From the NCBI GenBank assembly GCA_963699635.1, contig CAVOUQ010000016.1, positions 200,680 through 264,679 on the forward strand: a DNA stretch of 64,000 bases, read 5' to 3'. A program made the position numbers and the translations under genes. Under the pieces are notes generated by a model. That model worked only from the letters and a program-made list of their open reading frames with translations, searched no databases and was not told the origin of the DNA. The DNA comes from an uncultured Actinomycetes bacterium. GTDB lineage: Bacteria > Actinomycetota > UBA4738 > HRBIN12. This document shows positions 9,639 through 53,663 of this stretch, one piece after another (positions within the stretch are counted from its first letter, which is position 1; every line of letters starts with the position of its first letter).

Positions 9639-10510
9639 ACCGGGCTCGTCCCGAGCTGTCGCTTGATCTCCTCGAGCCGCGCGATGCGCGCCTCGGTCGG
9701 CGGATGCGTCGAGAACAGGCCGGCGAAGCTCGCCGAGGCCTGCCGCCCGCGGAACGGGTTCACGATGAACAGATGCGCCTGCGCCGGGCTCACGGTCGCC
9801 GGCACCGGCACCCGCTTCGCCGTCGCCTCGAGCTTGCGGAGCGCGCTCGCGAGCGCGTCGGGATCGTGCGAGAGGATCGCGCCCGATTCGTCCGCCTGAT
9901 ACTCGCGCGAGCGACTCACGGCCATCTGGATGATGGCGGCGGCGATCGGTGCGAGGAGCCACGCGAAGAGCATGCCGAACGCGCCGAACGGGCCGTTGCG
10001 ATCGTCTCCGCCGCCGAAGAACAAGGCGAAGCGGGCGAGGAACGTGATGCTCATGCCGATCCCCGCGGCGATCGAGCTGATCAGGATGTCGCGATTGGCG
10101 ACGTGCGAGAGCTCGTGCGCCAGGACCCCGCGGAGCTCGCGCTCGTCGAGGATCTCGAGGATCCCCCTCGTCACCGACACGGCGGCGTGGTCCGGGTTTC
10201 GGCCGGTCGCGAACGCGTTGGGCTGTTGCATCTCCGAGACGTAGATCGTGGGCATCGGCATGTGGTTGAGCTGCGTGAGCTCTCGAACGATCCGGTACAG
10301 CTCCGGCGCCTCCGCCTCGCTCACCGGCTTGGATCTCGTGGTCGCGATCGCGATCTTGTCGCTGAACCAGTACATCGAGAAGTTGAAGACCAGGGCGATC
10401 GCCAGCGCCAGCACCATGCCGCCGGTGCCCCAGATGGAGCCGACGAGGACGAAGGCTCCCCCGAGCGCCGCGATCAGGATCCAGGTCTTGATCCTGTTGA
10501 GACCGATCAT
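9635..10510 (-). CDS. htpX: Zinc metalloprotease HtpX
   Basis: 291 aa with HELSHVANRD (HExxH), 4 TM segments and SD AAAGGAGGG upstream. Confidence 0.9.
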   Translation of the reverse strand: MIGLNRIKTWILIAALGGAFVLVGSIWGTGGMVLALAIALVFNFSMYWFSDKIAIATTRSKPVSEAEAPELYRIVRELTQLNHMPMPTIYVSEMQQPNAFATGRNPDHAAVSVTRGILEILDERELRGVLAHELSHVANRDILISSIAAGIGMSITFLARFALFFGGGDDRNGPFGAFGMLFAWLLAPIAAAIIQMAVSRSREYQADESGAILSHDPDALASALRKLEATAKRVPVPATVSPAQAHLFIVNPFRGRQASASFAGLFSTHPPTEARIARLEEIKRQLGTSPV

Positions 10511-10561: not shown

Positions 10562-12028
10562 CTAGGGGCCGGCGAGGGTCGACAGCGGCGGGAAATGGGC
10601 CAGGAGCTCGGGCCACACGCCCACGGCCACCACCGCCGCCGTCGCCACGACCGTCACGGCGGTCACCAGGACCGGAGGGACGAGCGGCCGGTCGTGCTCG
10701 GGCTCCGCGAACAGCATCTCCCTCGGCACGGCGAGGTAGTACACGAGGCTGATCACGGAGTTGACGAGCATCACCACGGCCAGCATCGTTCCGATCCCGC
10801 CGCGCTCGATGGCGACCTTGAAGACCAGGAACTTCGCCCAGAAGCCTCCGGTCGGCGGGATCCCGGCGAGCGAGACCATGAACACGGTCATCGCGACCGC
10901 GATGAACGGGGCCCGGCGGCTGAGTCCGGCGAAGTCCGAGATCAGCAGGCCGCGGGACTCCTTGGACATCGCGATCACGACGGCGAACGCGCCGAGCGTC
11001 ATGATCGCGTAGATCAGGATGTAGGTGACCGCGGCCGCGAACGCGTCCCGGTTGATGCCCGCGTCGGCCGAGACGAGGGCGAACGGCAGCAGCATGTACC
11101 CGGCCTGGGCGATGCTCGAGTAGGCGAGCAGCCGGACCACCTGTCGCTGCTGTAGCGCGACGAGGTTGCCGATCGTCATCGTCGCGATCGACAGCGTCGC
11201 GAAGATCGGGGTCCAGAACTCGTACTGGTTCGGGAACGCGACGAACATCAGCTGGAGGAGTCCGGCGAACCCCGCGGCCTTCGACGCCGTCGCGAGGAAC
11301 GCCGCGACCGGCACCGGCGCGCCCTCGTACGTGTCGGGCGCCCAGAACTGGAACGGGACGGCGCTCACCTTGAACGCGAACCCGGTCACGATGAACAGGA
11401 TGGCGGCGAGCACGAGCGTCTCCTGCCCGTCGGGCAGCGCCCCCGAGAGCGCCCGTCCGATCTCGCCGAGGTTGAGCGTCCCGGTCACGCCGTAGATCAG
11501 GCTCATCCCGTACAGCATCACGGCCGTGGAGAGGACGCCGATCAGGAAGAACTTGATCCCGGCCTCGTTGGAGCGAGGGTCGGCCTTGCGGAAGGCCGCG
11601 ATGAGGAACCCGGGGGCGCTCACCGTCTCGAGCGCGATGAACAGCATCAACAGGTCGCGCGAGCTCGGCATGAGCAGGCAACCCAGGAAGGACGTCAGGA
11701 GCAGGAAGTAGTACTCGCCCTGGTAGAAGCGCCCGTCGCGGAAGTACCGGAGCGAGAGCATCAGGACGATCAGCGCGACGGTCAGAAAGAAGATCTTGAA
11801 CAGGACGGCGAAGTCGTCAACGACGAACGCCCCGCCGAACGTCGTGCGGTCCTGCCCGACGAGCGTGAGCACCGCGATCAGGGACGCGAGCACGCCGACG
11901 AACCCGAGCGGCATCGTGAACCACTTCCGCCGCTCGGACAGGAACGCATCCACGATGAGGACGAGCAGGATCGTGCCGGAGAGGATCATCTCCGGCAGGA
12001 TCGCGTAGTAGTCGATCGCCTGGTTCAT
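10562..12028 (-). CDS. nuoN: NADH-quinone oxidoreductase subunit N (operon 1, partial complex I)
   Basis: 488-aa polytopic antiporter-like ORF, last gene after nuoM. Confidence 0.9.
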   Translation of the reverse strand: MNQAIDYYAILPEMILSGTILLVLIVDAFLSERRKWFTMPLGFVGVLASLIAVLTLVGQDRTTFGGAFVVDDFAVLFKIFFLTVALIVLMLSLRYFRDGRFYQGEYYFLLLTSFLGCLLMPSSRDLLMLFIALETVSAPGFLIAAFRKADPRSNEAGIKFFLIGVLSTAVMLYGMSLIYGVTGTLNLGEIGRALSGALPDGQETLVLAAILFIVTGFAFKVSAVPFQFWAPDTYEGAPVPVAAFLATASKAAGFAGLLQLMFVAFPNQYEFWTPIFATLSIATMTIGNLVALQQRQVVRLLAYSSIAQAGYMLLPFALVSADAGINRDAFAAAVTYILIYAIMTLGAFAVVIAMSKESRGLLISDFAGLSRRAPFIAVAMTVFMVSLAGIPPTGGFWAKFLVFKVAIERGGIGTMLAVVMLVNSVISLVYYLAVPREMLFAEPEHDRPLVPPVLVTAVTVVATAAVVAVGVWPELLAHFPPLSTLAGP

Positions 12029-12052
12029 CGCCGCGCCGTCATCCGCCCGGGA

Positions 12053-13588
12053 TCAGCCGCCGAAGAGGTGGAGGAGGGCGTCGACCGGCTCCTGGGTCAC
12101 GCCGAAGATGATGCTGGGGAAGATCCCGAGCAGGACCGTCGCGACCAGCAACGGAACCCACGACACCCACTCCACGGCCACCACGTCGGGGAACGCGTCC
12201 TGCTGCCACTTCTCCGGGAGCGTGCCCATGTTCACGCGCTGCAACATCCACAGGAAGTACCCGGCGGTGAGGATGGTCCCGATGCCACCCGCCACCATGA
12301 AGACGCGGAACAGCCCCGTGTTGAGGGCGGCGGCCGGGCTGTAGCTCGAGAGCAACGCCATCACCTCGCCCCAGAAGCCGGCAAGGCCAGGCAGGCCCAG
12401 CGACGCGATCGCGACGAACGCGAAGACGCCGCCAAGGTAGGGCAGCTTCTGCATCACCCCGCCGCCGATCTCGGCGATCTCCCGCGTGTGGTAGCGGTCG
12501 TAGAGCGATCCGACGCAGAAGAAGAGCATCCCGGTGATCACGCCGTGCGCAACCATGCCGAAGATCGCGGCGTTGATCCCGATCGTCGTGAGCGTCGCGA
12601 TCCCGAGCATCACGAACCCCATGTGGCCGACGGAGCTGAACGCGATGAGGCGTTTCAGGTCCTTCTGCGCCAGACACGCGAGTGCCGCGTAGACGATGGC
12701 GATGGCCGCGAGCGCGCCGATCAACGGCGCGTACCGCTGAGCCCCGTACGGCAGGATCGGCAGCGCGATCCGGATGAACCCGTAGGTGCCCATCTTCAGC
12801 ATCACGCCGGCGAGCAAGACCGAACCGATCGTCGGCGCCTCGGTATGGGCATCGGGCAGCCAGGTGTGGAAGGGCCACATCGGGACCTTCACGGCGAAGC
12901 CAAGCCCGACGGCCGCGAACGCCACCAGCTGGAAGTCGTTCGAGAAGCCGCCGCCGGCCGCGAAGTGCTGAAGGGCAACCATGTCGAAGGTGTGCAGCCC
13001 ACCCCCGATGTCCGAGCGGAAGTACATCGCGAGGAATCCCAGGAGCATGAACACCGATCCGAACAGCGTGTACAGGAAGAACTTGATGGCCGCGTACTCG
13101 CGGTTCGCGCTCCCCCAGATGCCGATCAGGAAGTACATCGGGACCAGCACGAGCTCCCAGAAGACGAAGAACAGGATCAGGTCGAACGCGATGAACGTGC
13201 CGGCCATCCCGGTCTCGAGCAGCAACATGAGCCCGATGAAGGCCTTGGTCTTTCCGGGCTTCGGGACGAACCGCCACGTGTAGATGGCGCAGAGGAACGA
13301 GAGGGCAAAGGTGAGCACGTACAGCGGGAGGGAGATGCCGTCGATGCCGACGTGATATCGGGCGTTGATCGCCGGGATCCAGCTCGTGTCCAGCTGGAAC
13401 TGGAGCCCGGCGGCGCCGTAGTCGAAGTCGATCGCCATCGCGATCGCCACCAGGAGCGCGGCGCCCGTGAACGCGATGCCGAGCGCTCGCACCGCCTTTT
13501 CGTTTCGGCGCGGGACGATCGCGATCACCAACGCTCCCGCCAGCGGCAGGAAGGTGGCGATCGTGATCGCCGAGTTCTCCCAGGTCAT
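12053..13588 (-). CDS. nuoM: NADH-quinone oxidoreductase subunit M (operon 1)
   Basis: 511 aa, antiporter-like, with WLPDAHTEAPT motif. Confidence 0.9.
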   Translation of the reverse strand: MTWENSAITIATFLPLAGALVIAIVPRRNEKAVRALGIAFTGAALLVAIAMAIDFDYGAAGLQFQLDTSWIPAINARYHVGIDGISLPLYVLTFALSFLCAIYTWRFVPKPGKTKAFIGLMLLLETGMAGTFIAFDLILFFVFWELVLVPMYFLIGIWGSANREYAAIKFFLYTLFGSVFMLLGFLAMYFRSDIGGGLHTFDMVALQHFAAGGGFSNDFQLVAFAAVGLGFAVKVPMWPFHTWLPDAHTEAPTIGSVLLAGVMLKMGTYGFIRIALPILPYGAQRYAPLIGALAAIAIVYAALACLAQKDLKRLIAFSSVGHMGFVMLGIATLTTIGINAAIFGMVAHGVITGMLFFCVGSLYDRYHTREIAEIGGGVMQKLPYLGGVFAFVAIASLGLPGLAGFWGEVMALLSSYSPAAALNTGLFRVFMVAGGIGTILTAGYFLWMLQRVNMGTLPEKWQQDAFPDVVAVEWVSWVPLLVATVLLGIFPSIIFGVTQEPVDALLHLFGG

Positions 13589-13603
13589 CGGCCCGTTCCC
13601 CTC

Positions 13604-15592
13604 TCAGATCCTCGTGAAGACGATGGCCAAGATCACCACGCCGGCGAACAGGAACGCGGCGTAGCGCTGGACGTTGCCCGATTGGATGTAGCGCAGGATT
13701 CCCCCCGTGAATCCGGCCAGGTGGGCGGCCCCGTTCACCGCACCGTCGATCACGTTCCGGTCGAACCACGAGATCACGCCGGAGAAGACCACCGTGACCG
13801 AGGCCACGCCGTTCACCGCGCGATCGATGACGTTCTGGTTGGTCCAGTAGACGAACGCCGCGATCGGATCCCGGATCGGCCGGATGATCCCCTTCCAGTA
13901 CACGTCGTCGAGGTAGTACTTGTTCTCGAGCAGGGTGTACACCGGCCCCAGAGATCGGATGGGGTCGCGCTCCTGCCAGCGTCGGTAGACGACGAAGCCC
14001 GCGCCGATCCCGGCGATCGCCACGACGATCGACAATCCGGCGACCCACGGCACCAGCTTCACCGCCTCCGGCTCCTCGAAGAAGACCCAGTCGAAGAACG
14101 CGGCCCCGACCGGGCCGGCCCCGAGCCACCCGACGAAGAGCGTCGCCCCCGCCAGCCCGATCAGCGGGCCGGTCATCGAGACGGGCGACTCATGCGGGTG
14201 GGCTTGACCCCGGTAGCTCCCGAAGAAGGTCTGCATCAGCATGCGCATCGTGTAGAAGGCCGTCACGATGGCCGTCAGCACCATCACGGTGAACAGCACC
14301 TCGTGGCCCTTCGAGGCCCCGACCAGGATCTCGTCCTTCGACCAGAAGCCGGCGAGGGGCGGCACGCCCGCGAGCGCGGCCGAGCCGATCAGGAACGTCC
14401 AGAAGGTGACGGGCATCGGCCGGCGGAGCCCGCCCATCTCGCTCATGTTGTTCGTGTGGCAGGCGTGGATGACCGATCCGGACCCGAGGAACAGCAGCGC
14501 CTTGAAGAACGCGTGGGAGAAGAGGTGGAACATCGCCGCGTCGCGCCCGATCGCGCCGATCGACATGATCGCGACCATGTAGGCGAGCTGTGAAACCGTC
14601 GAGTACGCGAGGACGCGCTTGATGTCGTCCTGAACCAGCCCGAGCAACGCGGCGCCGAGCATGGTGATGCCACCGACGACGCCGACGACCTGCAAGACAT
14701 ACGGCTCCGCGTGCGCGAAGACGTCGAACATCCGTCCGACCAGGTAGACGCCGGCCGCGACCATCGTCGCCGCGTGGATCAGCGCGGAGACCGGCGTGGG
14801 GCCGGCCATCGCGTCGGGGAGCCACACGTGCAGCGGGAACTGCGCAGACTTGCCGATCGTGCCGCCGAACAACAGGAGCGCGGCGGCCGAGATCAGGGCG
14901 ACCGACATCCGGCCACCGGCCACGATCTCGCCGATCTCGCGGATGTTCGAGGTCCGGAACCCCGTGGCGGCAACCAGGACGAAGATCCCGAACATGAACG
15001 GGACGTCGCCGATGCGCGTGGTGATGAAGGCCTTGATCGCCGAGCTCGAGTTGACGTGCTCCTCCCACCAGTGGCCGATCAGCAGGTAGGAGCAGACCCC
15101 CATCACCTCCCAGCCGACGAGCAGCTGGAAGAGGTTGTTCGCGATGACCACGTCCAGCATCGCGCCAGTGAAGATCGACAGCACGACGAAGAACCAGGTG
15201 TAGCGCCGGTCTCCATGCATGTAGCCGACCGAGTAGACGTGGACGCAGAGCGACACCGCGGTGACGACCACGAACATGACGGCGGTCAACCCGTCGACGA
15301 GCTGCCCGAGCTCCATCTGGAGCGGGCCGATCTGGAACCAGTCGATCGAGCTCTCGTACGTGCCGCCGCCGTGCTGGACGAACTGCCAGAGCACGCCGAG
15401 CGACAGGACGAAGCACACGCCGATCGCGGCGATCCCGTACACCGCTCCCTTGCCGGGCGTGCGCTTGCCGAGGAACAGCGTGAGGGCGGCCGACACGAAC
15501 GGCAGGATCACGATGATCCACGCGTGCTGGATAAACCAGTTCGGCTCGGCGGTGGCATGCTCCGCGGCCTGCAGGACGACGGCGGCTACCAC
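13604..15592 (-). CDS. nuoL: NADH-quinone oxidoreductase subunit L (operon 1)
   Basis: 662 aa with [22 protein letters not shown] and a long C-terminal lateral-helix region. Confidence 0.9.
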
Positions 15593-15888
15593 TTGAGGAG
15601 GTTCACCTCGTCGACGTTGATCGTCTCGCGGTTGCGATAGATCAAGATGACGATCGCGAGCCCGATGCCGACCTCGGCCGCAGCCACCGCGATCACGAAG
15701 AGCGCGAACACCTGTCCCGTGAGCTGTCCGAGCTGTTGGCTGAAGGCGATGAGGTTGATGTTCACGGCGTTCAGCATCAGCTCGATCGCCATCAGGACCA
15801 TCACGGCGTTGCGCCGGGCGAGGACGCCGTACACGCCGGTGGAGAACAGGATGGCGGCGAAGGTCAGGGGAAGGAACAGCCGGATCAC
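15586..15888 (-). CDS. nuoK: NADH-quinone oxidoreductase subunit K (operon 1)
   Basis: 100 aa from GTG 15888 (the GTGA-type overlap with the nuoJ stop was checked by hand), with ..[21 protein letters not shown]. Confidence 0.85.
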
Positions 15889-16385
15889 GTTCGATCGTCC
15901 CGACGCGAGAGCACGATGGCGCCGATCAATGCCGCGAGAAGGATGAACGACACGACCTCGAACGGAAGGATGAAGTCGCTGAAGATCGAGAGCCCGATCG
16001 ACTCCGGGCTCCCCGACACCGGCTGGATCTTCGGGTCGTCCCAGGGGAACGCCCCCTGGATCATGAAGACGAGCCCGGCGAGGATCGCCAGGCCGATCAG
16101 GAACGCAACCCCCCGCCGTTGGTTGTCGAGCGCCTCTCGGCCGATCGGCGCCTTCGTCAGCATCAGTCCGAAGAGGAACAGGATCACGATCGCGCCGACG
16201 TAGATCAGGATCTGCACCCACGCCACGAACTCGGCGGCCAGCAGCAGGTAGACGCCGGCGACCATCGACAGCGTCAGCACCAGATACAACGCCGCGTGGA
16301 CGACGTTCCGAGCCGTGACGAGTCGGAACGCGGAGACCACCCCCACGACGGCCATCACGACGAACGCGTACTCCTGCCCCGTCAC
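15885..16385 (-). CDS. nuoJ: NADH-quinone oxidoreductase subunit J (operon 1)
   Basis: 166 aa from GTG 16385, which overlaps the nuoI stop (GTGA). Contains [11 protein letters not shown] and [14 protein letters not shown]. Confidence 0.85.
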
Positions 16386-17245
16386 GCGCCCTCCGCCTTC
16401 CTCCGGGCCGCGATGATCGCCGCCCGTTTGGCTTGCCCCTCGGCCACCCGCCGGTCCTTCCCCTGCGCCAACTGCTCCGCCAGCACCCGATCGAACGTCT
16501 CCTGATCCGGCACCACCTCGACATGCCCCCCCGCCGCGGCCGCCGTCGGCGACGGGGCGACCTGCGCGACCGGCGCCTCGGTGGGAGCGGCCCCCGCGGG
16601 CGCCGGGGTTGCGGCAACGGGAGCGGCCACGGCAGCCGCCGGGGGCTCTCCGGCGGTGATCACGCCAGGAAGCACCGACGCCGCCGCCGGAGCCTCCCCC
16701 GGCGGAGCCGAGGCCGCGACCGAAACAGCGTCCGTCAAGGGTTCCGCCCCCGTCTCGAGCTCGGGCGGCGGGAGGACCGTGTAGGTCCACTCCTCGAGCT
16801 TCTCCTTCTCGTGCGTGAGCAGGTCGATCTCGTAGGTGGAGTACTCGAACTCCGGGCTCCAGAAGAGTGCGTCGAACGGGCAGACCTCGATGCAGATCCC
16901 GCAGTACATGCACAGCGCGAAGTCGATCGCGAACCGGTCGAGCACCTTGACCGATCGCGCCTTGCCTCCGGAGGCCGGGTCGTGCGTCTCCTTGTGGGCG
17001 TCGATGTAGATGCACCAGTCCGGGCACTCCCGCGAGCACTTGTAGCAGACGGTGCAGTTGGCTTCCTTGAGGGCGATCACGCCTCGCGTTCGAGGGGGCA
17101 GGTCCGGCTTGACCTCCGGGTACTGCTGCGTGATCGAGCGGCGGAGCGCGTGCTTCATCGTGACGCCGAGCCCCTTGATCAGGCCGGCACCCGACCCCTT
17201 CGGATCGGGCGAGGTCTGCACGTCCCGTTCGTCGATCGCCATCAC
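16382..17245 (-). CDS. nuoI: NADH-quinone oxidoreductase subunit I (operon 1) with ~120-aa Ala/Pro-rich C-terminal extension
   Basis: Two CxxCxxCxxxCP motifs ([24 protein letters not shown]). The tail is ..[21 protein letters not shown].. and ends in [30 protein letters not shown]. Confidence 0.9.
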
Positions 17246-17252
17246 GAGCCCC

Positions 17253-18260
17253 CTAGACCGCGACCTTCACGATGCCGACGACCAGGACCTGCGCCAGCGC
17301 CAACGGGATGAGCGCGAGCCAGGATCCCCGCTGCAGCTGATCCTCGCGCATGCGGGGATACGTGGCGCGCAACCAGATGATGAAGAACGAGAGGCCGCCG
17401 ATCTTCGCCGCCATCCAGAGCGGGCCGGGGATGAACTCGAGGAACGGGAGCGAAAGATAGCCACCGAGGAACAGCACCGAGGCGACGGCCGAGAGCGCCA
17501 CGATCCCGCCGTACTCCGCCAGCAGGAAGAACGCGAACTTCAACCCCGTGTACTCGGTCAGCGCGCCGAAGATGATCTCGGAGTCGGCGACCGGCATGTC
17601 GAACGGCGGGCGCGTCAGCTCGGCGAGCGCCGCCACGACGAAGATCGCGAACCCGATCGGCTGCGTGAGCACGAACCAGAACCGCTGCTGCGCCTCGACG
17701 ATCCCGATCATCGAGAGCGTTCCCGCCTGCATCACCACGGCCGCCGCGCCGAGCACCAGAGGCAGCTCGTAGGCGATCAGCTGGGCGGCCGCGCGCAGGG
17801 CGCCGATCAGCGAGAACTTGTTGGCCGAAGCCCAGCCGGCCATCAGCACACCGATCACGGTGACCGACGTGATCGCCATGACGAAGAAGATCCCAACGTC
17901 GAGGTTGAGGATGAAGATCTGGTCCGAGAACGGGATGACGACGAACAGCGCGATGTACGGGACCAACGCGACGGCGGGCGCCATCGAGAAGACCCAGCGA
18001 TCGGCCGCGGCGGGGACGATGTCCTCCTTCTGGACGAACTTCACGCCGTCGGCGATCAGCTGCGCCCAGCCGTGGAAGCGTCCCGCGTACATCGGACCCA
18101 GTCGGGACTGCATGTGCGCGAGCACCTTGTGCTCCATGTACCCGACCACGAGCGGCGCGGTGAGGAAGAACACCAGCACGACGGCGGCCTTGACGACGAG
18201 CACCAGCCAGTAGTTGTCGAACCACTGATCCACGACGCTCACGCCCGCCTGCCCGATCAC
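17253..18260 (-). CDS. nuoH: NADH-quinone oxidoreductase subunit H (operon 1)
   Basis: 335 aa with [11 protein letters not shown] and [18 protein letters not shown] motifs. Its start overlaps the nuoC stop. Confidence 0.9.
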
Positions 18261-18778
18261 TCCTCCTCTTCCTCCTCACCCTCCGCCGCGCCCGGCCAGG
18301 GCTTGACCACGCGCGACATCAGCGGGAAGTCCTTGCGGAGCGGGTGGCCCTCGAAGGGCTCGGGCAGGAGCAGGCCGACGGGCTGCGGGTGGCCCTCGAA
18401 CGTGACCCCGAACATCTCCATGGTCTCGCGCTCGTGCCAGTTCGCCGTCGCGTAGATGTCGGAGATCGTCGGGCAGACCAGGTCGTCGGCCGGCAGGCGC
18501 ACCTTGACGCGGACGTTGTGACGGTGGGTGGTCGAGTAGACGTGGGTCACGATCTCGAGTCCGTCCTGCCCGCGATCGACGCCGGAGGTGAAGTCGCAGT
18601 AGTCGCACGCGAACTCGGGCTCGTCGCGGAGGAAGGTCATCAGCTCCCGGTACCGCGGCGCGACGACCGTCACGACCGGGTGACCGAACGAGTCCTCGAA
18701 GGCGAGGACGTCGTCCCCGAACTGCGCCCGAAGGCGCGTCTCGACCTCAGGAGGTGGCAGCGGATGTGTGCTTACCAC
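18257..18778 (-). CDS. nuoC: NADH-quinone oxidoreductase subunit C (30-kDa family; operon 1), poly-Glu C-terminus
   Basis: 173 aa with [20 protein letters not shown], ending [10 protein letters not shown]. It is followed directly by nuoH, so there is no nuoD. Confidence 0.85.
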
Positions 18779-19259
18779 TCCACTTCTCCCTGATGTCTTC
18801 CTTCTCGATCTTCTCCTGCAGCCGGATGATGCCCTCGAGCAGGGCCTCCGGCCTCGGCGGGCAGCCCGGCACGTAGACGTCGACCGGGATGATCTGGTCG
18901 ATGCCCTTCAGGACCGAGTACGAGTCCCAGTAGGGGCCGCCGCAGTTGGCGCAGGACCCCATCGAGATCACGTACTTCGGCTCGGGCATCTGGTCGTACA
19001 GGCGCTTGATGACGGGCGCCATCTTGTCCGTCGGCGTGCCCGCGACGACCAGCAGGTCGGCCTGACGGGGGCCGTGAGCGAACGGGATCACGCCGAACCG
19101 GATGAAGTCGTGCTTGGAGGTCGAGGCCGCGATGAACTCGATCGAGCAGCACGCGAGGCCGAAGTTGAACACCCACAGCGAGTACCTGCGGCCCCAGTTG
19201 AGGAGGAACTTGATGGGCTGGAACTGTGCGAGGGGCGTCTTCTCCGTGATCAGGCCCAT
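18747..19259 (-). CDS. nuoB: NADH-quinone oxidoreductase subunit B (operon 1)
   Basis: 170 aa from ATG 19259. N2 cluster ligands are present ([23 protein letters not shown]). Confidence 0.9.
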
Positions 19260-19615
19260 CGCAGGACCCCTTTGCGCCACGAGTAGAGCAGCCCGACGGC
19301 CAGGATCCCGATGAAGACCGCCATCTCGACCAGCGCCTGGTATCCGAGGCGCTCGAAGATGCTGGCCCAGGGGAACAGGAAGACCGACTCGACGTCGAAG
19401 ATCACGAAGAGGAACCCGTAGACGTAGTAGCGGACCTGGCTCTGCGACCAGCCCTCGCCCACGGGGTCGATGCCGCACTCATAGGTCAGCAGCTTCTCCG
19501 GGAGCGGGCGCCGGGGTGCGATCAGCCGTGCGGTCCCGAAGGCGACCACGACGAGCCCGACGCCGGCAACCAGGACCGCGAGGACGACCCCGTAGGACTC
19601 GTAATAGGTCTCCAA
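19250..19615 (-). CDS. nuoA: NADH-quinone oxidoreductase subunit A (operon 1)
   Basis: 121 aa with YECGIDP and [15 protein letters not shown]. Confidence 0.9.
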
Positions 19616-19678: not shown

Positions 19679-20686
19679 TCAGCCCTGCCTGGCTTCGCAG
19701 CGAGTGGCGAGGAACTCCGCGAGCTGGACGAGGGCGCTCAGGGCCGGCCCCTCGGGGAGGCGGGCGCCGAGCGCGTGGGCCCGGTCGACCTCCGCCACGA
19801 CCGCCGCGCGGGCGGCCCCGAGGCTCTCCGGGCCCCGGACGATCTCGAGCGCCCGGCGGAACCGGTCGCCTTCGGGCGGACCCGAGCGCAGCAGCGAGCC
19901 CAGCTCGTCCGCCCCGTTCCCGTGCGCGAGGGCGTGCAGCACCGGGAAGGTGTAGACGCCCTCCCGCAGATCCTGGCCGGGCTCCTTCTGGAGCTCCTGC
20001 TCGGTCGCCGTGAGGTCCATGATGTCGTCGGAGAGCTGGAAGGCCAGGCCGAGCGACTCGCCGAACTCCTCGAGCACGTCCAGGGAGTCGGCGGGGGCAT
20101 CGGAAAGCATCCCGCCGAGCCGGCACGAGGTGGCGATCAGCGCCCCGGTCTTCCGTCGGATGATCTCGAGGTACGCGTCGACCGTCTGGTCCACTCGGCC
20201 TGCGGCCTCGACCTCGCGGATCTGGCCGTCGCAGAGCGTCGCGATCGTCCTGGCGAGGAGCGCGCAGACGTCCGTCCCGAGATCGGTCGCGATGTCGGAG
20301 GCCCGGGCGAACAGGTAGTCGCCCGTGAGGATCGCGACGGTGTTGTTCCAGCGGACGTTCGCCGCGGCCACGCCGTGGCGCGAGTCCGCCTCGTCGATCA
20401 CGTCGTCGTGGTACAGCGTGGCCTGGTGCACGAGCTCGATCGAGACCGACCCCGGGATCAGGCGAGGGTCGGCGGGATCCCCGAAGTAGCCGGCCAGGAG
20501 GATGAGCATCGGGCGGAAGCGCTTCCCGCCGGCGGTGAGCAGGTAGCGGGCCGTCTCCCACAACATGTCGGAGTCGGCCCGGACGGCCTTCTCGAGGGCC
20601 TCCTCGACCTCGCCGAGGCGGGCTCGGATCTCGCGCTCGAGGACGGGGTCGGGAACCTCCAGCCCGGGGATCACGCGGCGGCTCAT
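19679..20686 (-). CDS. Polyprenyl diphosphate synthase (trans-IPPS; probable menaquinone side-chain synthase)
   Basis: 335 aa with GGKRFRP, LYHDDVIDEADSRHG and FQLSDDIMD (both Asp-rich motifs). Confidence 0.85.
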   Translation of the reverse strand: MSRRVIPGLEVPDPVLEREIRARLGEVEEALEKAVRADSDMLWETARYLLTAGGKRFRPMLILLAGYFGDPADPRLIPGSVSIELVHQATLYHDDVIDEADSRHGVAAANVRWNNTVAILTGDYLFARASDIATDLGTDVCALLARTIATLCDGQIREVEAAGRVDQTVDAYLEIIRRKTGALIATSCRLGGMLSDAPADSLDVLEEFGESLGLAFQLSDDIMDLTATEQELQKEPGQDLREGVYTFPVLHALAHGNGADELGSLLRSGPPEGDRFRRALEIVRGPESLGAARAAVVAEVDRAHALGARLPEGPALSALVQLAEFLATRCEARQG

Positions 20687-23749: not shown

Positions 23750-23750
23750 C

Positions 23751-25619: not shown

Positions 25620-25623
25620 GTCG

Positions 25624-25925
25624 TCACCCCCGCAGCACCGTCGCGTCGTCCACGCTGGCGCTGGCCCGTCGCCGGTAGACGTTCACGATGATCGCGAGGC
25701 CGACGACCACCTCGGCCGCCGCGACCACCATCGAGAAGAAGGCCAGGACCTGGCCGTTCAGGTTGCCGTGCATCCGGCTGAACGCGACCAGGGACAGGTT
25801 CACGGCATTCAGCTGAAGCTCGACCGACATGAAGATCACCAGCGCGTTCTTTCGCACGAGCACGCCGATCGTCCCGATCGCGAACAGCATGCTCGACACG
25901 ACGAGGAAGTAGGAGATCGGTGTCC

Positions 25926-25929
<4 letters not shown>
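25624..25929 (-). CDS. nuoK: NADH-quinone oxidoreductase subunit K (operon 2)
   Basis: 101 aa with [21 protein letters not shown]. Confidence 0.9.
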
Positions 25930-26512
<583 letters not shown>

Positions 26513-26513
<1 letters not shown>

Positions 26514-27022
26514 TAGCGCCCCTCCTGCGTTCCGGGTGCGGTGCCGAGCGGCAGCGGCGGCTCGAGCAGCTCCTCCTTCGACAGGATCGCCTCCTCGCGC
26601 GAGAGGAAGCTCATCTCGTAGGCGCTCGTGAGCGTGAGCGCGCGGGTCGGGCAGGCCTCGACGCAGAGGCCGCACATGATGCAGCGCAGGTAGTTGATCT
26701 GGTAATCCTTCGCGTACCGCTCCCCCGGGCTCGTCGGGTGCTCCGGGTCGTTGTCCGCCCCCTCGACCCAGATGGCGTCGGCGGGGCACGCGAACGCGCA
26801 GAGCTCGCACCCGATGCACTTCTCGAGCCCGTTCTCGTGCCGGTTCAGGAGGTGCCGGCCGATGTGACTGCGGGGCGGCGGCGGATCGATCTCCTTCGGA
26901 TACTGCTCGGTGACGTCGCGGCGGAAGATCTGCTTGAAGACCGTCCCCATCCCCTTCGCGATCGCGCCGACCGAGGTCCCGAAGTCGACCCCGGGGCGCT
27001 CGTTCGAGCCCTCCTCGCTCAC
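26513..27022 (-). CDS. nuoI: NADH-quinone oxidoreductase subunit I (operon 2)
   Basis: 169 aa from GTG 27022 (GTGA overlap with the nuoH stop). Contains [12 protein letters not shown] and [12 protein letters not shown]. No long tail. Confidence 0.9.
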
Positions 27023-33752: not shown

Positions 33753-33794
33753 CGCGCCCGTCCTGCTCGCCCGCGAGCTCGGCCCGACGCTCGC

Positions 33795-34292: not shown

Positions 34293-34858
<566 letters not shown>

Positions 34859-49748: not shown

Positions 49749-50099
49749 GTGAAGATCACGCAAGGGCTCGTGAAGCTGAAGGAGCGGGCCGAGCCCATCG
49801 TCAAGGGGTTCGAGTGGACGTGGACGAAGGCCGTCCTGTTCTCGCTCGGACTGGCCTTCTTCTGCGTCATCACCATGGCCGTGATCCCGTCGTTCTGGCT
49901 CTACTTCGCGGAGCAGAAGCTCGGCTGGGGCGGGATCTCCGGCACCTCCAACTGGCGGCCGCTCGCGCGAGACTTCATCGCCGTGAACCTTGCGATCGGC
50001 CCGTTCGTCACGCTCGTCGTCGCGGGCGCGATCATGCAGAACTGGCGTCGGAAGCTCCGAGGCGCCTCGGGGGAACGAGCCGCCGGCGGGTATCGATGA
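49749..50099 (+). CDS. Small membrane protein, first gene of the bc-complex operon
   Basis: 116 aa with 2-3 TM segments (AVLFSLGLAFFCVITMAVIPSFWLYF, FIAVNLAIGPFVTLVVAGAI). No family recognised. Confidence 0.6.
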   Translation: MKITQGLVKLKERAEPIVKGFEWTWTKAVLFSLGLAFFCVITMAVIPSFWLYFAEQKLGWGGISGTSNWRPLARDFIAVNLAIGPFVTLVVAGAIMQNWRRKLRGASGERAAGGYR

Positions 50100-50118
50100 C
50101 GACGAGGTCGAGGGCCTG

Positions 50119-50517
50119 ATGCCGTTCACCAAGACCGAGGTCGACGTCCACACCGACTACGTCGTCGAGGCGGTCGATCCGGCGTGGTTGGCCAAGGGCG
50201 TGAAGTCGCCCAAGCATCTGATGCTCGATCCGGACAACTGCATCCTGTGCCGGGCGTGCGAGGACGTCTGCCCCTGGAACTGCATCTTCATGATGTCGAC
50301 CGAGATCGTTCGCGACGCCGCGGACGAGGCCGTGGGGGCGGAGATCGGCGAGGCGTACTCGGTGTTCGTGGTCGACGACAACGCGTGCACGCGGTGCTCG
50401 GTGTGCGTGGACCGTTGCCCCACGGACACGCTGTACTATGCGCGACTGCCCGAGGCCGCGAGTGGACAGCGGACGATGGCCGCCGTCCCGGAGTCGCAGC
50501 GAGCCGAGGCCGAGTAG
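50119..50517 (+). CDS. 2x[4Fe-4S] dicluster ferredoxin
   Basis: 132 aa from ATG 50119 with CILCRACEDVCP and CTRCSVCVDRCP. Confidence 0.8.
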   Translation: MPFTKTEVDVHTDYVVEAVDPAWLAKGVKSPKHLMLDPDNCILCRACEDVCPWNCIFMMSTEIVRDAADEAVGAEIGEAYSVFVVDDNACTRCSVCVDRCPTDTLYYARLPEAASGQRTMAAVPESQRAEAE

Positions 50518-50541
50518 CGAGCAGGAGGGGGAAGGAACCGG

Positions 50542-51312
50542 GTGAAGCTCAAGCCGCCCTCGCCCAGCGAGGTGCTGGACCGGGTCCGCGAGACCGAGGT
50601 CTGGAAGTCGATCTTCCGGCCGGGCTCGATCTTCCGCCGAGGCTACAGGGACACGTCGCGAGACCGGGCCCTCGCCACGATGAACAACGTCCTGTACCAC
50701 CTGCATCCCGTCAAGATGAAGCGGCACGGGCTGAAGCTGACCTACACGTTCTGCCTCGGCGGCCTCTCGTTCTTCCTGTTCATCCTGCTGACGGTCACGG
50801 GGATCTTCCTGATGTTCTTCTACCGGCCGGCCGCCGAGCTCGGCGCCGCCGCCGCGTACACGGACATGCAGAACATCCGGACGTCGGTGTTCTTCGGCGA
50901 CCTCGTCCGGAACCTGCACCGGTGGGGCGCGCACCTCATGGTCTTCAGCGTGACGCTGCACATGGCCCGGGTCTTCTACACCGGCTCGTACAAGCCGCCC
51001 CGTGAGTTCAACTGGGTCGTCGGCGTCGTGCTGCTGTTCCTGACGCTCGGCCTGTCGTTCACCGGCTACCTGCTGCCCTGGGACCAGCTCGCGATCTGGG
51101 CCGTCACGGTGGGGACATCGCTCGCCGGGTACTCGCCGATGATCGCGAAGCAGGCGAACTTCCTCCTGCTCGGCGGGGTCGTGGTCGGGCCGGACACGCT
51201 GCTCCGCTGGTACGTGTTACACGTTCTCGCGCTGCCGTTCGTGCTCGTCATCTTCCTGTCGGTGCACTTCTGGCGGATCCGCAAGGACGGCGGGATCTCG
51301 GGACCGCTCTAA
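50542..51312 (+). CDS. Cytochrome b6-type subunit (N-terminal half of cytochrome b)
   Basis: 256 aa with SD GGAGGGGGAAGGA. Heme ligand pairs are H-x13-H ([16 protein letters not shown]) and H-x14-H ([16 protein letters not shown]), the b6-type spacing. Confidence 0.9.
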
Positions 51313-51325
51313 GGAAGAGGAGAAC

Positions 51326-51571
51326 ATGGCTCGCGAGGACACGCCGCTCGACCAGGAGACCTTCGACCGGGTCCTGGCCGACGAGCTCGCCAAGGGCACC
51401 GACCGCCGGGTCGCCGAGGGCCGCGCGCGCTCGGCCGCCGTCCGCGCCTACAAGGCCGCGCACGGGGAGGCACCTGCGGCCGCTCCGGCCGCTCGCCGGA
51501 CTGCGGCGGCTCGGGAGACGGAGGGCGGCTCGCCGCCACGGTCGCGCCGGCGGCGACCTCCGCTCCTGTAG
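51326..51571 (+). CDS. Small protein, or N-terminal extension of subunit IV, carrying the NuoI-tail motif
   Basis: Reads [56 protein letters not shown]. The 3-prime third turns Arg-rich, while the neighbouring frame continues as [20 protein letters not shown]. Probable frameshifts link it to 51609..52184. Confidence 0.55.
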   Translation: MAREDTPLDQETFDRVLADELAKGTDRRVAEGRARSAAVRAYKAAHGEAPAAAPAARRTAAARETEGGSPPRSRRRRPPLL

Positions 51572-51608
51572 CTGCCCCGGCGGCGGGAGCCGCGGCCGCC
51601 CGACGCGG

Positions 51609-52184
51609 TTGCGCGCGACCACCATCGCTCCGACTCGACAGGCGCCGGCGCCCACCGGGAACGTGCCGGAGCCGAAGAAGGGCGCCGAGGAGAAGCACCG
51701 GCTCCTCGCGCTCGTGCCCCCCGAGGGCATCCAGCGCGTCGAACGCGAGCAGGGCGACCGGATCAACGTGTGGCCGCACCTGCTGATCGAGGAGTTCGTG
51801 GCCCTGCTGATCATGACCGTGGGCCTCGTCATCTTCTCGACGTTCGTGAACGCCCCGCTCCGCGAGCTCGCGAACCCCAACCTCACGCCGAATCCTTCGA
51901 AGGCGCCGTGGTACTTCCTCGGTCTTCAGGAGCTGCTCCGCTACTTCCACCCGATGGTGGCCGGGGTCCTGTTCGCGCCGACGCTGGTGCTGCTCGCGCT
52001 CGCGGTCGTCCCGTTCCTCGACCGGAACCCGAGCACGAGGCCCGGGGACCGGAAGATCGCGATCACGTTGTTCACGATGCTCATGATGTTCGGGGCGACC
52101 CTGACGATCATCGGCTCCTTCTTCCGCGGCACCGGCTACAACTGGATCTGGCCGTGGGCCCAGGGGGTGTTCTTCGAGTTGTGA
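51609..52184 (+). CDS. Cytochrome bc/b6f subunit IV (C-terminal half of cytochrome b)
   Basis: Contains [16 protein letters not shown] (PEWY-equivalent) and 3 TM segments. The listed TTG start has no SD, so the true 5-prime end probably lies upstream (see 51326..51571). Confidence 0.8.
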
Positions 52185-52918
52185 CCGGGGTCCTGGCCAT
52201 CTCGAACGGCACGGTGGCGGCGATCGTCGCGATCGTGGTCCTCGACCTGTTCGCGATCGTGTTCGGGCTCTCCTTCAGGCGCGCGCGTCGCGAGCAGCGC
52301 GCGGCCGAGGCCGCGGCCACCGCCGTCGCGCTCGGGGGGCCGGCCCCGAAGGCGCCGAAGCCCATGAGCCGCCGCGAGTTCTTCCGCAGGTCGCTGGTCG
52401 CCTCGCTGCTGATCTACGGCGCCCAGTTCGGGGGCGCGAGCATCGCGTTCCTGTGGCCGAACCTGAAGGGCGGGTTCGGCTCGGTGATCAACGCGGGCAA
52501 GCTGGAGGAGATCAAGAGCGCGATCACCGATACCGGCCTTCCCGTCTACTCCGGGACCGGGCGGTTCTACATCGTCGCCTACGACGGCCGGCCGGACGAG
52601 GACATCGACTACGAGACCGAGGCCGTCTCCGCGCAGGGGGTCATGCCCCTGTACCAGCGGTGCGTGCATCTCGGGTGCCGGGTCCCGTTCTGCGAGCAGT
52701 CGCAGTGGTTCGAGTGCCCCTGCCACGGCTCGAAGTACAACACCGCGGGCGAGTACAAGCTCGGGCCGGCCCCCCGCGGGATGGACCGCTTCCGCGTCGA
52801 GATCACCGGCTCAGGAGACGTGATGGTCGACACGTCCGAGGTGATCCAGGGGCCGCCACGCGGGACCGACACGCTGCGCCGGCCGCAGTCGGGGCCCTTC
52901 TGCGTGGCGACGGCATGA
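52181..52918 (+). CDS. Rieske [2Fe-2S] subunit
   Basis: Contains CVHLGC and CPCHGS boxes and an internal twin-arginine motif [10 protein letters not shown]. The GTG start overlaps the subunit IV stop. Alternative ATG at 52364. Confidence 0.9.
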
Positions 52919-53663
52919 TCGGGATCTCGCAGGCGCAAGGCATCGTCCTCGCGGTCGGCGGAGCGATCTTCGTCGCCGTCGCGGGCGGCGTCGTGTTCCT
53001 GCGGGGTCGGCACCAGGCCGCGGTCTCGGCGCCGGACATCCCCCTAGGGATGCGGCCCGGACCATCGGACGCGGACCTCGAGACCCCGCTCCTGCTCAGA
53101 AGCTCCAGGGCTGGGGCCTCCTGATCGTCATCTTCCTCGTGGTCTGGGTGCCGGCGACCTGGCTGTTCGAGCCGGACCGCAACCTCGGCCAGGAGGACGC
53201 GCTCAGGCACGACGCGATCAACCGGGGCAGCCTAGCCGTCCAGCTGTACACGGAGGACAACCAGGGTGGCATCGGCTGCGTTCGGTGCCACGGCCCCGAG
53301 CTCCAGGGCAGCGTGATCCTCGACACGAAGTTGAATACGCCGAGGACGACCCCCAACCTCACGACGGTCTGCGGAGGCCCCTATACGGGTCATGGGCAGA
53401 TCTACGGCCTGAACGACATCTACACGACGATCGAGCAGGGACGAGGGCTTATGCCGTCGTGGAGCATCCGGTACGCGGGCGCCCTCAACGACCAGCAGAT
53501 CAACGACATCGTCAACTACATCGTGAGCATCCAGGACGAGGAGCTGGTGCCGTTCGAGAAGAACGTGTGCCTGAACCCGGACGCACAGACCGCCGCCGTC
53601 GACGAGTTCCTCGGCGGCGATCTGAGCAAGAAGCCGTCCCCGACGACCAACGTGGTGCTGTGA
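52915..53663 (+). CDS. Membrane-anchored monoheme cytochrome c subunit, frameshift near 53090-53100
   Basis: The ATGA-coupled ORF 52915..53124 provides TM1 ([20 protein letters not shown]). The next frame continues [24 protein letters not shown] (TM2), then CVRCH and GLMPSW. The listed start 53139 falls inside TM2. Confidence 0.75.

What the first reader, a model, noticed from the sequence alone, without database searches (positions are those of the whole stretch)
16385..16750. NuoI (operon 1) has an Ala/Pro-rich tether ending in a motif shared with a bc-complex operon protein
After the ferredoxin core, NuoI1 continues for ~120 aa of low-complexity Ala/Pro linker (..[33 protein letters not shown]..). 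It ends with [33 protein letters not shown] (16385-16507).

The ORF at 51326 in the bc operon starts with [33 protein letters not shown], followed by its own Ala/Pro linker. By hand alignment, 24 of 33 residues are identical.

At the DNA level, 5 of the first 10 identical codons differ only at the third position (GAT/GAC, ACG/ACC, GAT/GAC, GTG/GTC, GCG/GCC). This points to selection on the peptide rather than a recent DNA duplication.

NuoI2 (26513-27022) lacks the tail. I do not recognise the motif as a named domain.

A flexible, tethered, predicted-helical module on the cytoplasmic face of two different respiratory complexes suggests a shared docking partner or direct complex-to-complex tethering.
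Basis: seen in the sequence. Interest (0 to 1): 0.7.

Follow-up and report, generated by a model that had tools for sequence, protein, structure and literature searches.

The report
Tethered helical hairpin on respiratory proteins
A conserved, unannotated 40-residue two-helix module sits on long flexible Ala/Pro leashes on the cytoplasmic side of several respiratory membrane proteins in a group of uncultured Actinomycetota, and is probably a shared docking or clustering handle whose partner is unknown.

Summary
NuoI1 (16382-17245, minus strand) ends in an ~80-residue Ala/Pro linker followed by a 44-residue module. The ORF at 51326 starts with the same module: 24/33 identical, BLASTP E=6e-14, and 15 of the 24 identical residues use different synonymous codons.

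The module is not low complexity. A profile finds only 224 proteins among 1.84 billion representatives, and every one whose source name was looked up is from Actinomycetota. It has no Pfam, NCBIfam or PDB match. AlphaFold2 predicts a helix-turn-helix hairpin (pLDDT 95) with an acidic first helix and a basic second helix.

It occurs on four hosts:
- the C-terminus of NuoI from the partial nuoABCHIJKLMN operon;
- the N-terminus of the cytochrome b6-type subunit IV;
- the C-terminus of a small single-pass membrane protein, the commonest host, always upstream of Zincin_2-tilS;
- a membrane-anchored cupredoxin.

It is present in one or two copies, always on a 50-200-residue Ala/Pro(/Glu) linker and always predicted to be cytoplasmic.

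One correction: the 81-residue ORF is not a separate protein. It is the N-terminus of subunit IV, broken in this window by two frameshifts.

The function is inferred, not shown. The most likely role is a leashed docking module for a common partner, or for other copies of itself.

The parts
16382..17245 (-). nuoI1: NuoI of the partial nuo operon, 287 aa, including the tail
   Evidence: ORF. Fer4 domains and best NCBIfam matches are to NuoI models, though below their curated cut-offs. The gene lies between nuoH and nuoJ.
16754..17245 (-). NuoI1 ferredoxin core, residues 1-164
   Evidence: Pfam Fer4/Fer4_7 at residues 60-127. The core is 78-90% identical to orthologues in other species.
16517..16753 (-). 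Ala/Pro-rich linker of NuoI1, residues 165-243, ~79 aa
   Evidence: Sequence. In 16 non-redundant orthologues the linker is 67-93 aa (median 80), with A 30%, P 21%, E 13%. The equivalent linker in a two-module protein is modelled as disordered (pLDDT <50).
16385..16516 (-). Hairpin module, copy 1 ([44 protein letters not shown]). The 33-aa core is 16409-16507.
   Evidence: AlphaFold2 predicts helix 5-17, a turn, then helix 22-43, mean pLDDT 95.3.
51326..52184 (+). One gene for module + linker + cytochrome b6f-type subunit IV, broken here by two frameshifts and so read as an 81-aa ORF plus a 191-aa ORF
   Evidence: The gene is one in-frame ORF of 275-312 aa in 22 GTDB species. The window's three frames together reconstitute an orthologue-like linker.
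51338..51469 (+). Hairpin module, copy 2 ([44 protein letters not shown]). The 33-aa core is 51350-51448.
51470..51614 (+). Ala/Pro linker of subunit IV carrying the two frameshifts. Frame 0 reads sensibly to ~51493, frame 2 from 51511 to 51600 (SGDGG...AAGAAAA), and frame 1 from 51615.
   Evidence: Intact orthologues have a 47-78-aa linker (median 60) containing the same GDGG element.
51615..52184 (+). Subunit IV (PetD-like) membrane core
   Evidence: PF00032 Cytochrom_B_C, E=1.4e-9, 38.5 bits against a cut-off of 20.7. 77-95% identical to orthologues.
10562..19615 (-). Partial nuo operon nuoA-B-C-H-I1-J-K-L-M-N, with no nuoD, E, F or G. This is the host operon of copy 1.
   Evidence: Gene map and Pfam hits. 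The same gene order is seen in 10 other species.
49749..53663 (+). Rieske/cytochrome b operon: orf116, 2x[4Fe-4S] ferredoxin, cytochrome b6, module-subunit IV, Rieske, cytochrome c. This is the host operon of copy 2.
   Evidence: The same order is seen in L050, L060, L064, L067, L076, L078 and L086.
26513..27022 (-). nuoI2 of the complete nuoA-N operon, 169 aa, no tail (for comparison)

Best explanation
The 40-44-residue segment is an independently folding alpha-helical hairpin. Helix 1 is acidic ([16 protein letters not shown]). A conserved turn and N-cap (G-T-D-R-R) follow. Helix 2 is basic and Ala-rich (RVAEGxAxxAAxxAARKKA). The hairpin is held 50-200 residues from the membrane protein that carries it by an extended, disordered Ala/Pro(/Glu) leash, always on the cytoplasmic side.

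I propose it acts as a docking handle. Every copy presents the same conserved polar surface to one common cytoplasmic partner. This would concentrate that partner at the membrane through the dedicated single-pass anchor protein. It would also place it next to the complex-I-like enzyme of the partial nuo operon (via NuoI), the Rieske/cytochrome b complex (via subunit IV) and, in some lineages, a membrane-anchored cupredoxin. If the partner is multivalent, the same interaction would also hold these respiratory components together.

Shown: the module, its conservation, its hosts, the linkers and the predicted fold.

Inferred: the topology (from known NuoI and subunit IV topology and the positive-inside rule), the binding itself, and everything about the partner.
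For: 1. Strong purifying selection on the peptide in paralogous copies: 24/33 aa identical with 15 synonymous codon differences and a longest exact DNA match of 8 nt.

2. Polar positions are invariant or nearly so across all host classes in the 23-sequence alignment: invariant L16, G19, R23, V24, A25, E26, G27, A29; at least 90% D4, Q5, L12, T20, D21, R22, A32, A36. The class consensus sequences agree. That is more than a helical hairpin needs for stability, and it argues for a specific recognition surface.

3. The hairpin is predicted with confidence (pLDDT 95.3), and the linkers are predicted disordered.

4. The same module sits on four unrelated membrane hosts, at the N- or the C-terminus, in 1-2 copies. 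One genome carries the NuoI, subunit IV and anchor versions together: JBMDWR01 in L004/L045/L061, and chromosome OY969934 in P0299/L043/L081.

5. The commonest host (39 of 80 GTDB loci) is a single-pass protein with nothing else recognisable in the cytoplasm. This is what a dedicated membrane receptor for a soluble partner would look like.

6. The family is rare and lineage-restricted: 224 of 1.84e9 representatives. This fits a lineage-specific interaction system rather than generic low-complexity sequence.
Against: - No partner has been identified and no binding test could be run. No multimer prediction was available.
- Conservation of polar residues could instead reflect intra-hairpin salt bridges between the acidic and basic helices.
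- A soluble partner does not obviously explain why a periplasmic cupredoxin needs a cytoplasmic handle.
- The tandem second copies in some proteins change otherwise invariant residues (TDRRVAEG to L(P/A)RPIAE(G/S)). That is awkward if all copies bind one site.
Confidence: 0.4

Rival explanations
1. Direct module-to-module association ('respiratory Velcro'). Hairpins from different chains pair into four-helix bundles. This would link the complex-I-like enzyme, the dimeric Rieske/cytochrome b complex, anchored cupredoxins and anchor proteins into clusters through flexible cytoplasmic leashes, with no third partner.
For: - All identifiable hosts are respiratory-chain components.
- Helix 2 has both a bulky hydrophobic face and an Ala stripe (A25, A29, A32/33, A36), so one face could be free for a second hairpin (sequence).
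- Tandem two-module versions exist on NuoI, on anchors and on cupredoxins, giving the valency needed for networks.
- In tandem proteins the two copies differ systematically, including charge reversal in helix 1 of copy 2 of the cupredoxin type (EEAAxVRKRV). That could reflect complementary pairing.
- Leashes of 50-200 residues would span tens of nanometres laterally (the distance is my estimate).
Against: - A single-module anchor with no other function would only cap such a network, yet it is the commonest form (39 of 80 loci).
- AlphaFold2 on a natural two-module chain gave two confident hairpins but pTM 0.27. Foldseek matches never aligned more than ~49 columns, so no packed bundle was indicated. 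This evidence is weak, because only 7 sequences were used and no error map was available.
- Self-association motifs usually tolerate more sequence drift than is seen here.
Confidence: 0.25
2. The hairpin acts in cis or on the membrane. It would fold back onto its own complex as a regulatory or assembly element, or bind anionic lipid head groups through the basic helix 2, rather than recruiting anything.
For: - Helix 2 carries +3 to +4 net charge.
- NuoI1 belongs to an operon lacking nuoD-G, whose peripheral arm composition is unknown. A tail could fill a structural role there.
Against: - The same highly conserved sequence occurs on unrelated hosts and on an anchor with nothing to regulate.
- A leash of 50-200 disordered residues is unnecessary for binding the membrane the protein already sits in.
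- Helix 1 is acidic (-3) and the module is about neutral overall, which is poor for binding anionic lipid.
Confidence: 0.1
3. The module is a recognition tag for membrane-protein quality control or processing, for example by the product of the Zincin_2 metallopeptidase-like gene immediately downstream of the anchor gene, or by FtsH a few genes further on.
For: - The anchor gene is always immediately upstream of, and co-directional with, Zincin_2 then tilS (39 loci). hpt and ftsH follow in L001.
- In L085 the anchor stop overlaps the Zincin_2 start (8001-9170 and 9167-10225).
Against: - To my knowledge, Zincin_2-tilS-hpt-ftsH is a housekeeping arrangement in Actinobacteria that have no module, so the adjacency may be incidental. 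This was not tested here.
- Degrons are normally short and unstructured, not confidently folded hairpins.
- There is no direct evidence.
Confidence: 0.1
4. Artefact or accident: a low-complexity or coiled-coil segment, or a recent strain-specific duplication, with no function.
For: - The surrounding sequence is compositionally extreme.
- Many database entries are fragments.
- Some 48-49-aa 'free' modules turned out to be hybrid junctions on short contigs.
Against: - Only 224 hits in 1.84e9 representatives, all on a few coherent architectures.
- Present in all examined NuoI, subunit IV and anchor orthologues across dozens of species.
- The synonymous-site divergence rules out recent duplication.
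Confidence: 0.02

Closest known systems
Peripheral-subunit-binding domain (PSBD, Pfam E3_binding PF02817) of 2-oxo-acid dehydrogenase E2 chains
   Same: A ~35-45-residue, mostly two-helix mini-domain. It is flanked by long Ala/Pro-rich extended linkers, and its only job is to dock other proteins. Public annotation even calls some tail fragments 'dihydrolipoamide succinyltransferase, partial' (P0039, P0060).
   Different: There is no sequence match to PF02817 even at E<=10. The hosts are membrane respiratory proteins, not E2 acyltransferases. The position is terminal rather than internal. The partner is unknown.
ZipA-type bitopic tethers (N-out transmembrane helix, long Pro-rich linker, C-terminal binding domain that recruits FtsZ to the membrane)
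   Same: The anchor host has the same layout: a short external N-terminus, one transmembrane helix, a 55-209-residue Pro-rich disordered linker and a small C-terminal folded module.
   Different: There is no homology (no Pfam hit). The same module is also fused to enzyme subunits. Nothing connects it to cell division.
Encapsulation peptides of bacterial microcompartments and cargo-loading peptides of encapsulins; dockerin-cohesin systems
   Same: One short conserved element is appended through a flexible linker to either terminus of several unrelated proteins, so that they all bind one receptor.
   Different: Those are single short helices or Ca-binding dockerins that target shells or scaffoldins. 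Here the element is a hairpin on integral membrane proteins. No shell or scaffold gene was seen nearby.
Actinobacterial respiratory supercomplexes (mycobacterial/corynebacterial CIII2CIV2) and peripheral cytoplasmic subunits of b6f or NDH-1 such as PetP and NdhS
   Same: These are ways of organising respiratory complexes or adding cytoplasmic-side docking sites to them.
   Different: From my own knowledge, not tested here: those rely on rigid subunit contacts or separate small subunits with other folds. None uses one module shared between complexes on long leashes. The lineage here has a split b6/subunit IV complex rather than QcrABC.

Membership tests
PSBD / E3_binding (PF02817) | Sequence match to the family profile | tested here: not met
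   hmmscan of both window modules against Pfam-A at E<=10 gives no E3_binding hit. A profile search of PDB sequences gives no E2 or PSBD chain.
PSBD / E3_binding (PF02817) | Small helical domain flanked by Ala/Pro-rich flexible linkers | tested here: met
   AlphaFold2 hairpin at pLDDT 95. Linkers are 50-63% Ala+Pro, and the inter-module linker of a two-module protein is modelled at pLDDT <50.
PSBD / E3_binding (PF02817) | Located inside an E2 acyltransferase, between the lipoyl and catalytic domains | tested here: not met
   The hosts are NuoI, subunit IV, a single-pass anchor and a cupredoxin. The E2 names in databases are attached to linker-plus-module fragments only.
PSBD / E3_binding (PF02817) | Binds E3 and/or E1 | not testable with these tools
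   No binding assay or multimer prediction was available.
NuoI (complex I 23 kDa / TYKY subunit), for the host of copy 1 | Two CxxCxxCxxxCP 4Fe-4S motifs and a match to NuoI profiles | tested here: inconclusive
   Both motifs are present and the Fer4 Pfam hits pass. The best NCBIfam hits are all NuoI models, but they fall below their curated cut-offs (NF004540 95.7 vs 215; TIGR01971 90.7 vs 113).
NuoI (complex I 23 kDa / TYKY subunit), for the host of copy 1 | Encoded between nuoH and nuoJ in a nuo operon | tested here: met
   The order nuoA-B-C-H-I-J-K-L-M-N is seen in the window and in 10 other species.
Cytochrome b6f subunit IV / cytochrome b C-terminal part (PF00032), for the host of copy 2 | Profile match above the gathering score, and a gene directly after a cytochrome b6-type gene | tested here: met
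   PF00032 scores 38.5 bits against a cut-off of 20.7. The upstream gene matches PF00033 at E=5e-42. The same order is seen in other species.
Generic coiled-coil or low-complexity segment | Occurs scattered over many unrelated proteins and taxa | tested here: not met
   224 hits at E<=1e-3 in 1.84e9 representatives, on four coherent architectures. Every source name returned is Actinomycetota, or Actinomycetes/'bacterium' for MAG titles, apart from two short, probably mis-binned contigs and one 'Solirubrobacterales bacterium'.
ZipA-like bitopic tether (by analogy, for the anchor host) | N-out single transmembrane helix, long disordered Pro-rich linker, C-terminal folded binding domain | tested here: inconclusive
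   The layout is evident from the sequences. However, the topology is inferred from the positive-inside rule only, and there is no homology to ZipA.

The most novel reading that the evidence does not exclude
The hairpins bind one another, or a small multivalent adaptor. The complex-I-like enzyme, the Rieske/cytochrome b complex, anchored cupredoxin electron carriers and anchor proteins would then be strung together by 20-30-nm cytoplasmic Ala/Pro leashes. This would be a 'leashed respirasome': a way of building respiratory supercomplexes or membrane domains by flexible tethering through one shared module, rather than by rigid transmembrane contacts.
Probability: 0.25. Interest if true: 0.8.

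Novelty: new variant of a known kind. Interest (0 to 1): 0.6.

Why it matters
How bacteria organise respiratory enzymes in the membrane is mostly known from rigid supercomplexes in a few cultured species. Here one strongly conserved, unannotated mini-domain is shared by subunits of two different respiratory complexes, by an electron-carrier cupredoxin and by a dedicated membrane anchor. In every case it hangs on a long leash. This points to a lineage-wide interaction system acting at the cytoplasmic face of the respiratory chain.

The module also marks the enigmatic partial nuoABCHIJKLMN enzyme, which lacks its NADH-oxidising module and NuoD, as having a specific interaction that the canonical complex I of the same cell lacks.

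The module is short enough to synthesise, so the hypothesis can be tested directly even though the organisms are uncultured.

On the practical side, gene callers and assemblers routinely break these genes in the linker. The family is therefore invisible in annotation, and fragments are mislabelled as E2 components.

Tried and rejected
1. Named-domain searches found nothing usable.
- Pfam at E<=10, NCBIfam at E<=1, a PDB sequence profile search, and Foldseek against the PDB for both the single-module and the two-module models.
- The only 'hits' were 12-residue matches to de novo TIM barrels and E>1 fold matches to helices inside kinases. I rejected both as chance.

2. E2/PSBD membership, suggested by database names of fragments, is rejected (see the membership test).

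3. Recent DNA duplication or gene conversion between the window copies is rejected by the synonymous differences and the 8-nt longest exact match.

4. A free-standing 48-49-aa form of the module is rejected as a class.
- Ten or more clusters looked like stand-alone genes (P0003, P0004, P0009, P0059, P0062 and others).
- L087 and L088 show cytochrome b6, then a module with a subunit-IV-type N-half and a NuoI-type C-half, then nuoJ.
- L086 shows cytochrome b6 followed by the same kind of hybrid module, and the contig ends 7 bp after the stop.
- These are hybrid junctions on contigs of 3.2 kb or less.

5. The 81-aa ORF as a real small protein is rejected in favour of a frameshifted subunit IV gene.

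6. Long upstream open frames in L035 and L072 were examined as possible NuoI-subunit IV fusions. They are only out-of-frame read-through of cytochrome b6.

7. Singleton fusions to other domains (P0174, P0236, P0249) sit on contigs of about 1 kb or less. I set them aside as probable chimeras.

8. Homologues of the anchor's transmembrane part outside the family: only 75 hits, from unnamed or Actinomycetota-labelled sources. None has a useful name (the few JGI names are unrelated to one another) or a relevant Pfam domain.

9. Literature searches found no description.
- Searched: the motif strings, NuoI C-terminal extension, Ala/Pro linker with complex I or b6.
- Only the partial nuoABCHIJKLMN operon is already on record, in Streptomyces (PMC8622039).

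10. The class-level taxonomy of the carriers could not be resolved. Record titles say only Actinomycetota, and one NuoI is labelled Solirubrobacterales.
Full report
**1.

NuoI1 is the 287-aa ORF at 16382..17245 on the minus strand. Its parts are:
- Residues 60-127 carry the two 4Fe-4S motifs.
- The conserved core ends near LPPPELE, residues 158-164.
- Residues 165-243 are an Ala/Pro-rich stretch.
- Residues 244-287 read [44 protein letters not shown].

The ORF at 51326..51571 starts [41 protein letters not shown].

BLASTP aligns the two over 33 residues with 24 identities, 30 positives and no gaps, E=6e-14.

At the DNA level there are 9 identical codons, 15 synonymous differences and 9 replacements, with 68/99 nt identical. 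The longest exact DNA match is 8 nt.

A profile of the two copies finds nothing else in the six-frame translation of the window; the next hit has E=0.37.

NuoI2 (26513-27022, 169 aa) has no tail.

**2. The second copy is the N-terminus of subunit IV, not a separate protein**

The 81-aa ORF lies between a cytochrome b6-type gene (50542-51312, PF00033) and a subunit IV-type ORF (51609-52184, PF00032).

In 22 other species the module sits at residues ~5-55 of a single ORF. It continues through a 47-78-residue Ala/Pro linker into subunit IV, which is 77-95% identical to the window's.

In the window the three frames, read one after another, give an orthologue-like linker:
- frame 0 to ~51493 (..HGEAPAAAPAA);
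- frame 2 from 51511 to 51600 (SGDGG..AAGAAAA, including the GDGG element seen in orthologues);
- frame 1 from 51615 ([23 protein letters not shown]).

So two frameshifts interrupt the gene here. A related long-read MAG locus (L002) is riddled with such shifts. Assembly error is therefore the likeliest cause, but this is not proven.

**3. The module is a real, rare, conserved family**

A word-indexed search returned 121 short proteins or fragments. All names given by sources were Actinomycetota or Actinobacteria.

An exhaustive profile search of 1.84 billion representatives found only 224 proteins at E<=1e-3, of which 162 were at E<=1e-10.

A scan of one genome per GTDB species confirmed at least 233 stretches, all in uncultured Actinomycetota MAGs. 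The exceptions are two short, probably mis-binned contigs.

There is no match in Pfam, NCBIfam or PDB sequences.

AlphaFold2 on a 23-sequence alignment gives a hairpin with helix 5-17, a four-residue turn and helix 22-43, at mean pLDDT 95.3. Foldseek finds nothing below E=1.

Helix 1 has net charge -3 and helix 2 has +3 to +4.

In the 23-sequence alignment the invariant positions are L16, G19, R23, V24, A25, E26, G27 and A29. Positions conserved in at least 90% of sequences are D4, Q5, L12, T20, D21, R22, A32 and A36. Across the host classes the shared part is [20 protein letters not shown]. The last third of helix 2 is class-specific..RSAAVRAYRAxHG on subunit IV..[12 protein letters not shown] on anchors and NuoI.

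**4. Hosts**

I classified the 80 GTDB loci by the ORF that holds the module and by its neighbours:
- 13 loci: C-terminus of NuoI.
- 28 loci: N-terminus of subunit IV, 22 of them complete.
- 39 loci: C-terminus of a small single-pass membrane protein.

The small membrane protein has this layout:
- a signal-like or short N-terminus;
- ..DPxxTPxxNxGGWV(Y/F);
- one transmembrane helix;
- Y(M/L)R(F/Y)APRF on the positive, presumably cytoplasmic side;
- an Ala/Pro linker of 55-209 residues (median 113);
- the module, followed by the stop codon.

Its gene has a fixed position: UbiB (divergent), usually a tRNA-like stretch, the anchor, Zincin_2, then tilS; hpt and ftsH follow in L001. Its membrane part has no annotated relatives.

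The exhaustive search added further variants:
- anchors with two modules (P0121, P0123-P0127; P0125 is again upstream of Zincin_2);
- NuoI with two modules (P0247, P0334, P0290, P0368);
- a secreted cupredoxin domain, one transmembrane helix and two modules (P0248, P0254).

One genome carries the NuoI, subunit IV and anchor versions together: JBMDWR01, and chromosome OY969934.1.

NuoI is cytoplasmic. From the established topology of cytochrome b/b6f, the N-terminus of subunit IV is on the n-side. The residues after the anchor helices are positively charged. So all copies are inferred to be cytoplasmic.

**5. Context of copy 1**

NuoI1 belongs to a partial operon nuoA-B-C-H-I-J-K-L-M-N (19615 to 10562) with no nuoD, E, F or G. 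That operon lies just downstream of a polyprenyl synthetase gene and of a complete nuoA-N operon.

The tailed NuoI lies in the order A-B-C-H-I-J-K-L, with no nuoD-G between C and H, in all nine loci whose flanks reach nuoA; a tenth (L079) begins within nuoC.

All 11 NuoI sequences examined from the 120 listed clusters carry the tail.

A partial nuoABCHIJKLMN operon beside a complete one is already described for Streptomyces (PMC8622039). The tail is not.

**6. What it most likely does**

These features point to a docking handle with a specific, conserved recognition surface:
- a confidently folded mini-domain;
- strict conservation of polar residues across paralogues, despite saturated synonymous sites;
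- placement at either terminus of unrelated membrane proteins;
- long extended leashes;
- one or two copies per chain;
- a dedicated anchor whose only cytoplasmic feature is the module.

I rank the readings as follows:
- A common cytoplasmic partner, possibly multivalent: 0.40.
- Direct module-module pairing that clusters respiratory components: 0.25.
- Action in cis or on lipid: 0.10.
- A quality-control tag linked to the neighbouring Zincin_2/FtsH genes: 0.10.

The only test I could run on self-association was AlphaFold2 of a natural two-module chain. It gave two confident hairpins and a disordered linker, but pTM 0.27 and no bundle-like Foldseek match. That is weak evidence against stable pairing and not decisive.

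**7. Comparison with known systems**

The design is that of the peripheral-subunit-binding domain of E2 chains (a helical mini-domain on Ala/Pro linkers) and of ZipA-type tethers. The logic is that of encapsulation peptides or dockerins. Membership of the PSBD family was tested and not met.

I know of no described case in which subunits of two respiratory complexes, an electron carrier and a dedicated anchor share one leashed module. The literature searches found none.

I rate it a new variant of a known design principle. There is a 0.25 chance that it represents a new way of organising a respiratory chain.

**8. Caveats**

- All relatives are from metagenomes.
- Many are fragments, because assemblers and gene callers break in the linkers.
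- Topology and function are inferred.
- The partner is unknown.
- The class-level taxonomy is unresolved.

Noticed in passing
window 10562-19615 (-) and 20721-35234 (-): A partial operon nuoA-B-C-H-I-J-K-L-M-N, lacking nuoD as well as nuoE, F and G, lies directly downstream of a complete nuoA-N operon. A polyprenyl synthetase gene (19679-20686) separates them. How an enzyme without NuoD forms a quinone site is unclear. The arrangement is conserved in 10 other species and is known from Streptomyces (PMC8622039).
   Followed up: partly
window 51490-51615 (+): Two frameshifts inside the Ala/Pro linker split the module-subunit IV gene into an 81-aa ORF and a 191-aa ORF. The gene is intact in 22 other species. 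The cause is probably assembly indels in GC-rich repetitive sequence, but a recent pseudogene is not excluded.
   Followed up: yes
L086 3022-3168; L087 852-1001; L088 354-503: Short contigs (3.2 kb or less) from different samples carry a 48-49-aa 'free' module directly after cytochrome b6. Its N-half is subunit-IV-type and its C-half is NuoI-type. In L087 and L088 it is directly followed by nuoJ; L086 ends 7 bp after the stop. This is either chimeric assembly across the repeated module or a real inversion between the two inverted copies. An inversion would also create a NuoI-linker-module-linker-subunit IV fusion.
   Followed up: partly
window 49749-50517 (+), divergent from 48822-49607 (-): The Rieske/cytochrome b operon starts with an unannotated 116-aa membrane ORF and a 2x[4Fe-4S] ferredoxin, placed ahead of cytochrome b6 and divergent from a CcdA/DsbD-type gene. 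The same order is seen in seven other loci. A ferredoxin inside a bc-type operon is unusual, and its role is unknown.
   Followed up: no
L001 5433-6147 and 38 other loci (e.g. L005, L059, L081, L085): The single-pass anchor gene always sits between a divergent UbiB/ABC1-Usp gene (usually with a tRNA-like stretch) and Zincin_2-tilS; hpt and ftsH follow in L001. In L085 its stop overlaps the Zincin_2 start.
   Followed up: partly
P0039, P0060 (public records): Linker-plus-module fragments are annotated in NCBI as '2-oxoglutarate dehydrogenase E2 / dihydrolipoamide succinyltransferase, partial'. The cause is presumably the Ala/Pro composition. These look like mis-annotations.
   Followed up: partly
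P0219 and nine cluster members (439 aa): This is a NuoI variant with an extra ~180-residue N-terminal region containing several hydrophobic stretches, in addition to the C-terminal linker and module. It was seen on up to 98-kb contigs, so it is probably real.
   Followed up: no
window 52180-52918 (+): The Rieske-type protein has CVHLGC...CPCHGS in its sequence. The stretch I translated (52180-52918) gave no Pfam hit at E<=1e-3, and the orthologue in L002 has only a weak Rieske hit. Either it is a divergent Rieske protein, or my chosen coordinates were out of frame (I did not check).
   Followed up: no
L083 8001-9179 (P0248) and P0254: This is a membrane-anchored cupredoxin (PF13473) with two divergent modules on its cytoplasmic tail. 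Copy 1 begins DPxKVYxAVL. Copy 2 begins EEAAxVRKRV, a charge reversal in helix 1. It lies next to a YkuD L,D-transpeptidase gene.
   Followed up: partly
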